Shown here piece by piece: positions 58,957 to 64,000 of a DNA stretch of 64,000 bases; the stretch's first letter is position 1; each line of letters starts with the position of its first letter. The stretch covers positions 31,768,250 through 31,832,249 of the forward strand of contig NC_134026.1 of NCBI RefSeq assembly GCF_964204645.1, in the 5' to 3' direction. This stretch comes from Tubulanus polymorphus. Lineage: Eukaryota; Animalia; Nemertea. Both the position numbers and the translations under genes were made by a program. The notes beneath the pieces were generated by a model. That model was not told the DNA's origin, did not search any database, and worked only from the letters and a program-made list of their open reading frames with translations.

Positions 58957-61900
58957 CTATAATTCCATCGATGTATTCTCCTTATCCTCATCGTCTTCAC
59001 CTGTATCTACGGTGCTGCCACCTGTAGCAGACGTATCAGCTCTGTCGTCATCATCGTCTTCATCCTCGACATCCATATAAAATAATCGTACTCTTCTACG
59101 AGACGAGAACACCTACAAACAAACACCAGGTGGCGTTGATTAATTCACCACTAGGTGGTGCTAATAACGAACCACTAGGTGGAGTTACTTACCACACATG
59201 AGACTTTACGAGTTCCACTAACAGCGAAACAATGAGCTTTCATATTCTCTAAACGTCGGAAATTAGAATCATCTACATTCACTGCTGCATCTATACACAC
59301 CCTACACAATGAGAGAGAGAGGTAGAGGTGAGAGAGGTGAGACTGAGAGAGAGGTAAGACTTAGAGGTAGAGAGAGAGGTGAGACTGAGAGGTAGAGAGA
59401 GAGGTAGGGAGAGGTAGGGAGAGAGGTAGGGAGAGAGGTGAGACTGAGAGAGAGGTAAGACTTAGAGGTAGAGAGAGAGGTGAGACTGAGAGGTAGAGAG
59501 AGAGTTAGAGAGAGGTAGGGAGAGAGGTAGGGAGAGGTTGAGAGGTAGGGAGAGAGGTTGAGAGGTAGGGAGAGAGGTAGAGAGAGAGAGGTAGAGAGAG
59601 AGGTAGAGAGAGAGGTAGAGAGAGAGGTGAGACTGAGAGGTAGAGAGAGAGTTAGAGAGAGAGGTAGAGAGAGAGGTAGAGAGAGAGGTGAGACTGAGAG
59701 GTAGAGAGAGAGTTAGAGAGGTAGGGAGAGAGGTAGAGAGAGAGGTAGGGAGAGGTTGAGAGGTAGGGAGAGAGGTTGAGAGGTAGAGAGAGAGGTAGGG
59801 AGAGAGGTAGAGAGAGAGGTAGGGAGAGGTAGGGAGAGAGGTAGGGAGAGAGGTAAAGAGAGAGGTAGGGAGAGGTAGGGAGAGAGGTAGAGAGAGAGGT
59901 AGGGAGAGGTAGATAGGTAGGGAGAGAGGTAAAGAGAGAGGTAGGGAGAGAGGTAGGGAGAGGTAGAGAGAGAGGTAGGGAGAGGTAGAGAGAGAGAGGT
60001 AGGGAGAGGTAGAGAGAGAGGTGAGACTGAGAGGTAGAGAGAGAGTTAGAGAGGTAGGGAGAGAGGTAGGGAGAGAGGTAGGGAGAGGTAGAGAGAGAGG
60101 TGAGACTGAGAGGTAGAGAGAGAGGTGAGACTGAGAGGTAGAGAGAGAGTTAGAGAGAGAGGTGAGACTGAGAGGTAGAGAGAGAGTTAGAGAGGTAGGG
60201 AGAGAGGTAGGGAGAGGTAGAGAGAGAGGTGAGACTGAGAGGTAGAGAGAGAGTTAGATAGGTAGGGAGAGAGGTAGGGAGAGAGGTAGGGAGAGGTAGA
60301 GAGAGAGGTGAGACTGAGAGGTAGAGAGAGAGGTGAGACTGAGAGGTAGAGAGAGAGGTGAGACTGAGAGGTAGAGAGAGAGGTGAGACTGAGAGGTAGA
60401 GAGAGAGAGAGGTGAGACAGAGAGGTTGTGAGAGAGGTAGAGAGAGAGGTAGGGAGAGGTAGAGAGAGGTTGTGAGAGAGGTGAGACTGAGCGGTAGAGA
60501 GAGGTAGGGAGAGGTGAGACTGAGAGGTAGGAGAGGTGAGAGGTGAGACTGAGAGGTAGGGAGAGGTTGTGAGAGAGGTAGAGAGAGAGGTAGGGAGAGA
60601 GGTAGGGAGAGGTAGCGATGATACTTACAGTTGATTGATATTAAATCTCCGCTGTATTGATTTATTATCGTATACTCAATATCTCGAATATTCGACAGCG
60701 CCATCTGCAGAGAACCGGTAACTTATCTTCCTCGTCCTCTACGAGTAACAATGAAATTGTCTGGTCGTCATAGTGACCAATATCTAATATTCGATGGTGC
60801 TGACACCTATAATAAAGAGAGAGAGAGGGGTATAGACAGTGTGAAACTAATAAATTCAGTTATACGGCCTCTAGTGTAATGATTCACTGAACAGGAATCT
60901 GAACTGTTTTTTATGAATGGTTTAAGGGAAGGTTTGTTAATGATTGTGCAAGTCATGTGTCAATTATAAACTGTGCACAGACCCACTGCATACTGTTAAA
61001 CAAACTAGTTTTCTTTTCATTAGAAAGTTATATTAGTGAGGATTCTCAGCTGAGCTGTTTACACAGAGGTCAGAGAGAGAGGTCAGAGAGAGAGGTAGAG
61101 AGAGGTCGGATGAAGAATTTAATCAGTCTCTAAACTGTTGATTCATTCATTCATTCACACACACAGCGAGGCAGGAGTAGAGTAGGAGTTGCTGGTCGTC
61201 TCTCTACTAGTGGCAGCAGCTGTCTCATTGATATGGGACAATATAAACTAACTATTCACTATTCACTACTCGCTACTACTCGACTAACTTATACAAACTT
61301 CTGATAGTTTTATCAATCGTCATGGTAACGAATAAGACAATGGTTTACGCGTTAGTGGTAATTAGTTTAGTCGTACTCGTTTCTGGGGTAAGATTTCAAT
61401 TTCATTTTCACTGTTTTTATAAAATGCTTTGTATTATATAATGAGGATATGTAGAGGGAGGGTACCCGTAGCCGGGTAACCGGTCAGTGTTAGATACCTC
61501 CTCGGTAGGTATCCCCGCACGGGTTAGGGTTAAAACCACCCTCTACAGACCTGCGAAGTGTTCTGTGAAAACTAACACATGTTCAGATCATATTAAAAAT
61601 GCCCGTATAAAATCTATACAATTAATAACATAACAAACAGTAACTGTATGTTTAAACCACTGCGGGCTATTGTCGGTTCTACGGGTTTCATACGGGCTTC
61701 ATACGGGCTTCATACGGGCAATAACGGGTAGTGAGGGATGAAAAAGGGTTAATTTATATTGAATATTGAGTTTATAAACTCACAGTAATGAATATTAAAG
61801 TCAATATTAATATAAGATTTGAGATTAATGAGTGTCACGGATGACTGTCTAACTGTGTCTATATAATAACTCTATCAATCACTGTTAGTTAATCAAACAA

Positions 61901-64000
61901 TACCCGACCAGCAAGTAGAGAGAGAGAGAGAGAGAGAAGGGCTGAGAGAGAGAGAGAAGGGCTGAGAGAGAGAGAGAAGGGCTGAGAGAGAGAGAGAAGG
62001 GCTGAGAGAGAGAAGGGCTGAGAGAGAGAAAAGGGCTGAGAGAGAGAGAGAGAAGGGCTGAGAGGAGAGAGAAGGGCTGAGAGAGAGAGAGAAGGGCTGA
62101 GAGAGAGAGAAGGGCTGAGAGAGAGAAAAGGGCTGAGAGAGAGAGAGAGAAGGGCTGAGAGGAGAGAGAAGGGCTGAGAGAGAGAGAGAAGGGCTGAGAG
62201 AGAGAGAAGGGCTGAGAGAGAGAGAGAGAAGGGCTGAGAGAGAGAGAGAAAAGGGCGAGAGAGAGAGAGAGAAGGGCTGAGAGAGAGAGAAGGGCTGAGA
62301 GAGAGAGAGAGAGAGAGAGAGAGAGAGAGAGAGAGAGAGAGAGAGAGAGAGAGAGAGAGAGAGAGAGAGAGAGAGAGAGAGAGAGAGAGAGAGAGAGAGA
62401 GAGAGAGAGAGAGAGAGAGAGAGAGAGAGAGAGAGAGAGAGAGAGAGAGAGAGAGAGAGAGAGAGAGAGAGAGAGAGAGAGAGAGAGAGAGAGAGAGAGG
62501 ACTCAGAGGCACTACAAGTCTATTTCATTATAGCTTCAGTTTATGATGGAAGTTTTAACAATAGCCGACAGTTTAACAATAACAAGAGCTCAAGAGGTCA
62601 CACACAAACTGAGGTCACACATCTGTTCAATAATTCATCCCCATTATTTAGAGTGGATTAGTTTGGCTCGTTCTTCATTCTAAACATCAAACACTTTTAT
62701 AGAAAGAACAACAAAAAATCAGTAAAATTCATATTTGAAATCAATCTGTGAAGACTAGAAACATTCCCTCAGAAATATCGAATCTTAGTTACTTAATCCT
62801 AAATATTGTGGCCTCGTAGACTAGATTCTGAATGTGCCGCTATCTGGATTTATTAGAAATATTTTCGAACATGAATTTCTGAAAGTTAGTAGAGCATTCA
62901 GTGAATATTGTGAGTTTAGTTTAAATCTATTTTCAGTTGAAAGTGCCGAAATTCACCGAACTCAAACGTAATTATCCCGGTTACAAACTTTACGGAGGAT
63001 CAAAAACAGACGAACAGATCAATAAATTATTAACAGTTGAAAGAATTGAGCATCACACGTCTGCTATACGTCTCTCTTATTCGCTGAATCATATCGACTA
63101 CCAACACGCCATCTATACCAATAAACACGTACTAAACAATGACAGCATCATCTGCGATGAGGAGCGTCGAGATGAATGTTACATCCAGAATCCGGTCATG
63201 TTCGGACCGTATTTAGAAAAAGTTTATAAAACGCCCGAGTTTTATCGAGCGACAAAACGCAATCGACGCGAGATTATCTCCGAACTGAGAGGGCGCCGCG
63301 GTATAGTACGTTTGGCAACGTTCCAATACGAGAAAGCAGACGCACGTGTTGCATTGTGGGATTGCGATCAATTCTATCAAACGAGGAATTGGATTTTGAA
63401 ATATCGACATTTAATCGCAGTGGAATTCTGGGAATCTCCGGGTTAGAGAGGAATTAATGATAATTTAATTCATTAAATTCATTCGATCGTTAATAATTAA
63501 TTCATTGTAATTTCCTGATTGCAGGTACTGAAAGGAATGACCCGGCGGGTTGTAACTCACGGCAACAGAGACCCGTTAGAATCAGACATCATCATAAAGC
63601 TTTGAGGGGGGTCGAACGCACCTGACAACATCTCATTTAAACAAACGACTAATAAATTGAGATTTAAATCTAGTAACCACGGTTACTATCGTGTATATGA
63701 ATTGATATATGTATATAATGTAAGTAAATCTAGGAGTATGTCGAGTGTAATGTAAATACAGGTGTAAAGTGATCCTAGAATACTTCAGACCTATTGACCT
63801 ATAAATCATATATCCACCAACAGATGGCAGCACTGATTATATCTCCTCAACAACTTATAGTTCACCGAGTATCGGATAGATAGCAGCAGTAGAACCTGCA
63901 CTAATAGTTCACCCGATATTACACAGATGGCAGCACCAGACGGACACTTACTTGTCAGTTGTATTCCTGGCTCCTAATTGTCCAAATTTCACAGCAACGG
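58957..64000 (-). CDS. ANAPC4: Anaphase-promoting complex subunit 4, 3' part (continues beyond the window; frame disruption in exon 60806-60629)
   Basis: Exons ~64000-63952 (VAVKFGQLG..), 60806-60629 ([18 protein letters not shown]), ~59301-59193 ([23 protein letters not shown]) and ~59112-58957 ([19 protein letters not shown]). These match recalled APC4 segments IAIKFG / LDAQFYDDETV / WRLLESMKAQYVAGNGFRKVSCVLSSNLRHVRVFEMD. Confidence 0.82.
59310..60612. repeat. GA-rich compound repeat (GAGAGGTAG/GAGACTGAGAG) in an ANAPC4 intron
   Basis: Direct. Confidence 0.9.
61340..63625 (+). CDS. Secreted Tae4-family (T6SS amidase effector-derived, dae4-like) protein with substituted catalytic residues; 3 exons
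   Basis: Exon 1 61340-61387 signal peptide [16 protein letters not shown]|gtaaga (alternative in-frame ATG at 61322); exon 2 62937-63441 after ttttcag, with Tae4-like motifs [52 protein letters not shown]; exon 3 63525-63625. Confidence 0.75.
61915..62500. repeat. (GA)n microsatellite plus GAGAAGGGCTGA units
   Basis: Direct. Confidence 0.92.

What the first reader, a model, noticed from the sequence alone, without database searches (positions are those of the whole stretch)
61340..63625. Domesticated bacterial T6SS amidase (Tae4/dae4-like) that appears to be a secreted pseudo-enzyme
Seen: a 3-exon gene with its own signal-peptide exon, whose exon 2 aligns motif by motif with recalled bacterial Tae4 peptidoglycan amidases (NACPIRMSYVLN vs [29 protein letters not shown] vs [16 protein letters not shown]). 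The catalytic Cys position is Ser (TCT, 63060-63062, one change from TGT). The catalytic His position is Arg (CGT, 63345-63347, one change from CAT). ORF, splice sites and signal peptide are intact. Established: tae genes were horizontally transferred to several animal lineages as antibacterial dae genes. Inference: this copy may have been repurposed as a non-lytic peptidoglycan-binding or pattern-recognition protein, or as a mucus/venom component, analogous to non-catalytic PGRPs. It also has a basic, His-containing C-terminal tail.
Basis: partly seen in the sequence, partly recalled or inferred. Interest (0 to 1): 0.8.

Follow-up and report, generated by a model that had tools for sequence, protein, structure and literature searches.

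The report
Ancient disarmed bacterial toxin in worms
This ribbon-worm gene encodes a protein with the fold of a bacterial cell-wall-cutting weapon but without its catalytic residues, a loss shared with relatives in molluscs, annelids, brachiopods and bryozoans, so it likely acts as an ancient secreted binder of bacterial cell wall rather than as an enzyme.

Summary
The window holds an intact three-exon gene, identical to Tubulanus polymorphus LOC141899719 (a nemertean). Both introns are removed exactly in contigs from two studies (library type not on record). The product has an N-terminal hydrophobic stretch and the Tae4 amidase fold (Z 16.6, rmsd 2.3 over 147 residues). Ser replaces the catalytic Cys and Arg replaces the catalytic His.

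The loss is not recent or specific to this copy. None of 70 related animal-type proteins covering the position has the Cys (54 Ser, 10 Ala). They come from five lophotrochozoan phyla, form one clade, and show signs of both introns, a new cysteine pair and a basic His-rich tail. All 110 bacterial Tae4 checked keep Cys and His. The Arg is shared with a bryozoan clade.

Best reading: an ancient secreted pseudo-amidase that likely binds peptidoglycan (about 0.5; binding untested). A Cys-less, immune-induced Dae4-like gene is already in print for Nematostella, and RipD is a precedent for a non-catalytic binder. The key paper (Chou 2015) could not be read, which limits the novelty claim. The gene also lies antisense inside an ANAPC4 intron.

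The parts
61156..61321 (+). 5' leader as far as a contig reaches; holds a 23-codon upstream ORF starting at 61233
   Evidence: X2 contig of 1270 nt begins at 61156 (a contig end is not a transcription start); ATG list
61322..61387 (+).
   Evidence: hydropathy peak 3.45 over 11 residues; helix 4-20 in the model
61388..62936 (+). Intron 1, 1549 nt, phase 0, with a long GA-rich repeat
   Evidence: GTAAGA..TTTCAG; X2 contig runs from 61387 straight into the first 30 letters of exon 2
62937..63441 (+). Exon 2: whole Tae4-fold (papain-like NlpC/P60) domain, residues 23-190
63060..63062 (+). Ser64, at the position of the Tae4 catalytic Cys (start of helix 64-73)
63345..63347 (+). Arg159, at the position of the Tae4 catalytic His
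63363..63365 (+). Cys165 of the W-D-C motif, invariant in the animal family; predicted disulfide partner of the exon-3 Cys (inferred)
   Evidence: 78 of 78 rows; Gly in 15 of 23 bacterial rows
63442..63524 (+). Intron 2, 83 nt, phase 1
   Evidence: X5 contig skips 83 nt, GT..AG
63525..63625 (+). Exon 3 coding part: Cys200 (63551-63553), basic His-containing tail, stop codon
   Evidence: low-confidence in the model (pLDDT 58-68)
63626..63979 (+). 3' untranslated region as far as the X5 contig reaches; its end overlaps an ANAPC4 exon on the other strand
   Evidence: table 8
60807..63951 (-). 3145-nt intron of the host gene ANAPC4; the whole coding part of the Dae4-like gene lies inside it, antisense
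   Evidence: One X5 contig joins 60806 to 63952 (loose ends); minus-strand GTAAGT donor and pyrimidine-tract TAG acceptor, frame open across the joint
59193..59301 (-). ANAPC4 exon that identifies the host gene
   Evidence: PF23405 WD40_APC4_C-half 34.4 bits, over cut-off; APC4 chains in PDB; exon ends
60625..60806 (-). ANAPC4 exon next to the host intron; the window lacks one base behind 60709 relative to three runs

Best explanation
This is an intact, spliced ribbon-worm gene for a predicted secreted protein with the Tae4 amidase fold and neither catalytic residue, a member of an ancient lophotrochozoan family that lacks the catalytic cysteine throughout, and it likely binds bacterial peptidoglycan without cutting it. 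Shown: gene structure, splicing in contigs, fold, Ser and Arg at the catalytic positions, family-wide absence of the Cys, one animal clade. Inferred: origin by transfer of a bacterial tae4 before the sampled phyla split; secretion; a disulfide between Cys165 and the exon-3 Cys; no amidase activity (a papain-like amidase needs the Cys-His pair). Proposed and untested: the old substrate cleft holds peptidoglycan stem peptides while the basic His-rich tail grips anionic bacterial surfaces or mucus, so the protein tags, clumps or sequesters bacteria and wall fragments as a soluble innate-immune receptor.
For: Fold: AlphaFold model pLDDT 87; VIA Z 16.6, rmsd 2.3, 147 residues to Tae4, next family Z 7.5. 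Catalytic column: of 79 animal-type proteins, 70 cover it, with Ser 54, Ala 10, Thr 2, Lys/Asp/Gly/Glu 1 each and Cys 0; the His column is His 70, Arg 7, Tyr 1 of 78. Bacteria: Cys and His in 94 of 94 close Tae4 and 16 of 16 diverse PF14113 loci. The 21 animal-type rows lie on one side of a starred branch (SH-aLRT 97), and the animal tree recovers mollusc (100/100), nemertean-containing (98/95) and bryozoan-containing (100/98) groups. Long retention: 35-49% identity to other phyla, 62-68% among octopus and bivalves. Secretion: 14 of 14 named animal proteins with a usable N-terminus have a hydrophobic leader, against 8 of 94 bacterial ones. All 35 spliced-type C-termini read D-x-x-C, and 31 of 33 long tails are net basic. 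Precedents: the Cys-less Nematostella Dae4-like gene is induced with the active one by cGAMP, NF-kB-dependent (PMC8713801 section 8; log2FC 8.3 in its supplement); inactive Tae1 C30A shows peptidoglycan contacts by NMR over a wide surface (PMC9270033 passages); RipD is a non-catalytic NlpC/P60 peptidoglycan binder (PMC12067865 passages).
Against: No binding, localisation, tissue or induction data exist here for any member of this family. Residues around the old active site have changed too: the Asn two before the Cys, present in 21 of 23 bacterial rows, is mostly Asp in animals and His here. A long Arg side chain could block the cleft. Many invariant animal residues (Y35, G37, H79, G112-P113, R147, C165) are not conserved in bacteria, which fits a new ligand equally well. 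Slow evolution in molluscs fits a host ligand as well as a microbial one. No catalytically intact animal Dae4 was retrieved, so common origin with Nematostella Dae4 and the direction of transfer were not tested. The Tubulanus branch is long (1.05), so this copy may be under weaker constraint than its relatives.
Confidence: 0.5

Rival explanations
1. Same gene history and same dead active site, but the fold was recruited for a host-directed extracellular job (binding a host peptide, glycan or matrix component), with no immune role.
For: Many family-invariant residues are animal-specific; 62-68% identity across mollusc classes; conserved new cysteine pair and tail; no kappa-B-like site between the neighbouring gene and the start (6 matches in the window, none between 55933 and 63430).
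Against: All characterised relatives read here act on or bind peptidoglycan; the Cys-less Nematostella paralogue is strongly immune-induced. A missing consensus site says little.
Confidence: 0.3
2. The family swapped nucleophile rather than losing it: in molluscs a Ser-His pair on the papain-like fold would hydrolyse an amide or ester, and only the nemertean and bryozoan Arg copies are dead or altered.
For: All 43 rows of the mollusc clade keep Ser or Thr together with His; Ser in 54 of 70 and His in 70 of 78 overall.
Against: Ser and His are lost in complementary lineages: Ala, Asp, Gly, Lys or Glu in 14 of 70 rows, most of which keep His, and Arg in 7 rows that keep Ser or Thr. Cys-to-Ser changes usually abolish papain-fold activity (own knowledge). 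It cannot apply to this protein, which has no His.
Confidence: 0.1
3. The protein is a non-catalytic partner or decoy: it would regulate an active wall hydrolase of the host, or soak up bacterial Tai4-type inhibitors.
For: Nematostella co-induces an active and a Cys-less copy; Tai4 binds Tae4 at the cleft entrance (PMC6277958 and PMC3759425 passages).
Against: No active lophotrochozoan paralogue turned up in three database searches, although these could miss distant ones; the Tae4 loops contacted by Tai4 are not conserved in the animal rows.
Confidence: 0.07
4. A decaying pseudogene or bacterial contamination.
For: Long terminal branch; score just under the Pfam cut-off; weak second donor GTTAGA.
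Against: Open frame, both introns removed in contigs, family-invariant residues kept, animal neighbours, nested in an ANAPC4 intron, orthologues in five phyla.
Confidence: 0.02

Closest known systems
Bacterial Tae4 / Ssp amidase effectors (PF14113; PDB 4jur, 4hfl, 4bi3, 6ijf)
   Same: Fold (Z 16.6), helix and strand that carry the catalytic pair, and the R-x-S-x-x-x-N, G-I and L-W motifs.
   Different: No Cys-His-Asp triad; hydrophobic leader instead of T6SS delivery; two introns; the winding loop with the Tae4 disulfide is replaced by W-D-C plus an exon-3 Cys; added basic tail; about 18% identity.
Nematostella nvDae4 (GI 5507694) and Cys-less Dae4-like (LOC5507684), PMC8713801
   Same: Animal Tae4 homologues; nvDae4 is secreted; one of the two lacks the catalytic Cys.
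   Different: nvDae4 is an active, bactericidal amidase; the Cys-less one was not characterised in that paper. Neither sequence was retrieved, so orthology with this family is untested.
Mollusc and other animal dae4 genes of Chou et al. 2015 (Nature 518:98)
   Same: Recalled, not read: that paper reported dae4 in molluscs and a few other animals; the mollusc proteins found here are probably those genes.
   Different: The paper was not held. Whether it notes the family-wide Cys loss is unknown; PMC8713801 cites it for the Cys-less Nematostella copy.
Mycobacterial RipD (Rv1566c)
   Same: NlpC/P60 fold with substituted catalytic residues, reported to bind peptidoglycan without cutting; C-terminal extension thought to aid wall binding (PMC12067865 passages).
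   Different: Bacterial, a different NlpC/P60 branch, no transfer to animals.
Non-catalytic peptidoglycan recognition proteins (PGRPs)
   Same: Functional analogy only (own knowledge): amidase fold turned into a receptor.
   Different: Unrelated zinc-amidase fold; receptor function is proven for PGRPs and only proposed here.

Membership tests
Tae4 family (PF14113) as homologues | Profile match to PF14113 | tested here: inconclusive
   25.7 bits against a cut-off of 27, E 1.3e-5; 25 of 27 family rows match, best E 5.9e-13
Tae4 family (PF14113) as homologues | Tae4 fold, closer than to other NlpC/P60 amidases | tested here: met
   Z 16.6 and 16.5 to Tae4 and Ssp1; next is Tae3 at 7.5
Tae4 amidase effectors (enzymes) | Catalytic Cys | tested here: not met
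   Ser64; no Cys within residues 60-73 in any register
Tae4 amidase effectors (enzymes) | Catalytic His | tested here: not met
   Arg159
Tae4 amidase effectors (enzymes) | Bacterial T6SS context with a tai4 immunity gene | tested here: not met
   Animal locus inside an ANAPC4 intron; neighbours SH3, PLC, MFS and ankyrin genes
Domesticated amidase effectors (Dae4) | Host-encoded tae4 homologue integrated in an animal genome, with introns | tested here: met
Domesticated amidase effectors (Dae4) | Eukaryotic secretion signal | tested here: met
   Hydropathy only; no signal-peptide predictor or experiment
Domesticated amidase effectors (Dae4) | Descent from bacterial tae4 by transfer, same event as published dae4 | tested here: inconclusive
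   Animal rows form one side of a starred branch among 23 bacterial rows, but the tree is unrooted and holds no catalytic animal Dae4
Domesticated amidase effectors (Dae4) | Peptidoglycan hydrolysis and bacterial killing | not testable with these tools
   Predicted absent from the missing Cys-His pair
Non-catalytic NlpC/P60 peptidoglycan binders (RipD type) | NlpC/P60 fold with substituted catalytic residues | tested here: met
Non-catalytic NlpC/P60 peptidoglycan binders (RipD type) | Demonstrated peptidoglycan binding | not testable with these tools
   Needs pull-down or biophysical assay

The most novel reading that the evidence does not exclude
A bacterial type VI toxin captured before molluscs, annelids, brachiopods, bryozoans and nemerteans split was disarmed once and kept as a secreted peptidoglycan receptor: an unrecognised, superphylum-wide class of innate-immune pattern-recognition proteins built from a bacterial weapon, parallel to non-catalytic PGRPs but on a papain-like fold.
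Probability: 0.38. Interest if true: 0.8.

Novelty: new variant of a known kind. Interest (0 to 1): 0.52.

Why it matters
Domesticated amidases are cited as bacterial toxins that animals kept for killing bacteria. Here a branch spanning five phyla lacks the nucleophile in every member examined, yet keeps its fold and secretion signal and shows signs of the same exon layout and new conserved features. If it binds peptidoglycan, it is a missing soluble sensor in oysters, mussels, clams and cephalopods, relevant to shellfish immunity, and a clean case of a transferred toxin changing function. If it binds a host ligand, it is an early example of a bacterial weapon recruited for animal extracellular biology. 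The question is directly testable with small recombinant proteins and existing mollusc challenge data.

Tried and rejected
Single-sequence search of PDB gave nothing significant; the profile did. A fold of exon 2 without an alignment was poor (pLDDT 50) and was not used. No whole genome is held for the window, so paralogues, synteny and dN/dS could not be examined; tblastn found no second copy in the window.

No RNA holder was listed among the runs: library type is not on record, and RNA is inferred from exact intron removal. X3 and X4 laid nothing on exon 1. Contig depth was not used to rank expression. The two X5 differences in exon 2 (one changes a residue, one is silent) are too few for a selection test.

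No plasmid match. The animal profile matched 1 of 401 genomes drawn from one bacterial phylum, the centre genome itself. No catalytic animal Dae4 was reached. Kappa-B-like sites: 6 in the window against 24 expected, none upstream of the gene.

Literature: searches found no paper on lophotrochozoan Dae4-like proteins or six of their accession numbers. Chou 2015, Hayes 2020 (Cell version) and Zhang 2013 (JBC) were not held. The octopus mucus proteome supplement could not be read and may bear on localisation. The Amphiporus toxin supplement has no Tae4 term, which is weak since such a protein may be unannotated. Earlier scan findings: none.

Rejected: recent point-mutation origin of Ser64 and Arg159; contamination; venom-specific origin. 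Cys165 as a moved nucleophile was judged unlikely because it ends the strand that begins near the His position and co-occurs with the exon-3 Cys; no coordinates were available to measure this.
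Full report
Gene. The window reads as a three-exon gene on the + strand: coding 61322 (or 61340)-61387, 62937-63441 and 63525-63625, with GT..AG introns of 1549 and 83 nt. The spliced product is identical to RefSeq XP_074642288.1, 'uncharacterized protein LOC141899719' of Tubulanus polymorphus, a palaeonemertean. 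A 1270-nt contig of run X2 starts at 61156 and passes from 61387 directly into the first 30 letters of exon 2. A contig of run X5, from another study, skips exactly intron 2 and runs to 63979. The library type of these runs is not on record, so RNA is inferred from the exact intron removal. Two of the six listed runs gave junctions; the other four laid nothing on the exons they were tried on.

Context. Neighbouring exons encode SH3, MFS, ankyrin and phospholipase C domains (5 of 6 pieces scanned had hits). One X5 contig joins 60806 to 63952 (loose ends). The skipped 3145 nt are a canonical minus-strand intron with an open frame across the joint. A downstream minus-strand exon matches the APC4 WD40 family over its cut-off, and the exons read through in one frame if one unknown base is allowed behind 60709, where three runs show an insertion. 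The gene therefore sits antisense inside an ANAPC4 intron, which rules out bacterial contamination.

Homology and fold. Exon 2 scores 25.7 bits on Pfam Tae4 (E 1.3e-5, cut-off 27). A 27-row alignment of homologues finds Tae4 chains in PDB at E 1.2e-8 and matches a Salmonella Tae4 at 97% by hhalign. The AlphaFold model (pLDDT 87) gives 11 Foldseek matches at E<=0.001, all Tae4 or Ssp, and Z 16.6, rmsd 2.3 over 147 residues, against 7.5 for Tae3. The ESM Atlas ranks first a eukaryotic, mostly mollusc Tae4 cluster of 57 members. Tae4 uses a Cys-His-Asp triad (PMC6277958, passages). Here the Cys position is Ser64 and the His position is Arg159.

The family. Searches returned 81 animal-type proteins. 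Named ones are from Nemertea (Tubulanus, Lineus), Annelida (Owenia), Brachiopoda (Lingula), Bryozoa (Bugula) and Mollusca (bivalves, cephalopods, Littorina). Many are unnamed and are called animal only from tree position and intron signature; some rows are near-duplicates of one gene. Of the first 79, 70 cover the nucleophile column: Ser 54, Ala 10, Thr 2, Lys, Asp, Gly and Glu once each, Cys none. Of 78 covering the His column: His 70, Arg 7, Tyr 1. The two later rows are Ser/His. By contrast 94 of 94 close bacterial Tae4 (found with a query containing such sequences, so biased) and 16 of 16 diverse PF14113 loci (of 18 matches; two partial ones left out) keep both residues.

Trees. With 65 rows (14 fragments or duplicates dropped), the tree recovers a 43-row mollusc clade (100/100), a group of Tubulanus, Lineus and one unnamed row (98/95) and a Bugula group (100/98); deeper order is weak and the Tubulanus branch is long. 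His-to-Arg needs two changes, since Lineus has His, and a single Arg clade is not rejected (p-AU 0.109). In a quick mixed tree, 21 animal-type rows lie on one side of a branch with SH-aLRT 97 against 23 bacterial rows. That tree is unrooted and holds no catalytic animal Dae4, so it does not name a donor or prove direction.

Shared new features. After the terminal W-E-S-P motif, 35 rows continue with Asp and all 35 read D-x-x-C; 39 continue with Gly, as expected when a G|GT donor is read through in unspliced gene calls (this gene is itself Gly-type after correct splicing, so the class is mixed). Three residues before the N-terminal motif, 14 of 18 Gly-type rows have Gln, as from an in-frame CAG acceptor, against 0 of 33 Asp-type rows. 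Both introns are therefore likely shared across phyla (inference). Cys165 is invariant (78 of 78) and mostly Gly in bacteria, which suggests a family disulfide with the exon-3 Cys (inference; no coordinates were available). Tails of 30 or more residues are net basic in 31 of 33 rows. Of 16 named proteins, 14 had a usable N-terminus and all 14 have a hydrophobic leader, against 8 of 94 bacterial proteins.

Mechanism. A papain-like amidase without Cys and His should not cut (established chemistry; the C63A mutant of Nematostella Dae4 is inactive, PMC8713801 section 8). Long retention implies another job. I favour peptidoglycan binding (0.5): inactive Tae1 contacts peptidoglycan over a wide surface (PMC9270033, passages), RipD is a natural non-catalytic binder of the same superfamily (PMC12067865, passages), and the Cys-less Nematostella paralogue is induced about 300-fold by cGAMP (supplement rows). 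The basic mature protein (pI 9.5) suits anionic surfaces. Against this, no binding or expression data exist for this family, the residue before the nucleophile has changed, and many invariant residues are animal-specific, so a host ligand remains open (0.3). A Ser-His hydrolase in molluscs (0.1) is weakened by complementary loss of Ser and His in different lineages. A decoy role (0.07) and decay (0.02) are less likely.

What is known. Animal Dae4 and a Cys-less Dae4-like gene are in print (PMC8713801; abstract passages, section 8 and supplement rows seen). Tick Dae2 is active (bioRxiv 10.1101/2020.04.10.036376, passages). Chou 2015 was not held; from recall it reported mollusc dae4, and it may already show the Cys loss. 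Eight searches found nothing on a lophotrochozoan-wide inactive family, within an open-access library only. The protein fails the catalytic tests for a Tae4 or Dae4 enzyme, so it is filed as a non-catalytic variant of the Dae4 kind.

Verdict. New variant of a known kind, interest 0.52.

Noticed in passing
window 60807-63951 (-): The gene is nested antisense in an intron of ANAPC4, and its 3' untranslated region overlaps the next ANAPC4 exon (63952-63979).
   Followed up: yes
window 60709: Contigs of runs X3, X4 and X5 have one extra base here; without it the ANAPC4 exon frameshifts, so the window likely has an assembly indel.
   Followed up: partly
window 61233-61304 (+): 23-codon upstream ORF in the 5' leader covered by the X2 contig.
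   Followed up: no
window 63153-63155 and 63177-63179 (+): Cys95 and Cys103 lie on the two strands of a predicted hairpin and are not conserved in relatives; possibly a lineage-specific disulfide.
   Followed up: no
window 31791-32009 and 35770-35985 (+): Four tRNA-Gln(CTG) genes in two pairs, among exons of a minus-strand phospholipase C-like gene region.
   Followed up: no
window 54842-56845 (+): Exons with proline-rich repeats and SH3 domains, resembling a drebrin-like or Abp1 gene (name recalled; SH3 hit).
   Followed up: partly
window 14069-17520 (-): Major-facilitator transporter gene (MFS_1 hit) lying between other genes' exons.
   Followed up: no
P0078, P0079 and the P0018/P0056/P0058/P0073/P0074 group: Molluscs appear to carry paralogues: two rows share one longest-contig length, and a separate oyster-scallop subclade is visible in the tree.
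   Followed up: no
P0037, P0024: Two divergent unnamed homologues with Glu or Lys at the nucleophile position and long branches.
   Followed up: no
L086 (G769:C140): A bacterial PF14113 domain at the end of a frame of at least 449 aa scores best against the animal profile (45.8 bits) and joins the animal branch weakly, on a long branch.
   Followed up: partly
L028, L034, L078: Bacterial Tae4 domains fused to other N-terminal regions: Cys-rich repeats in L028, an extra domain in L034, a long frame in L078.
   Followed up: no
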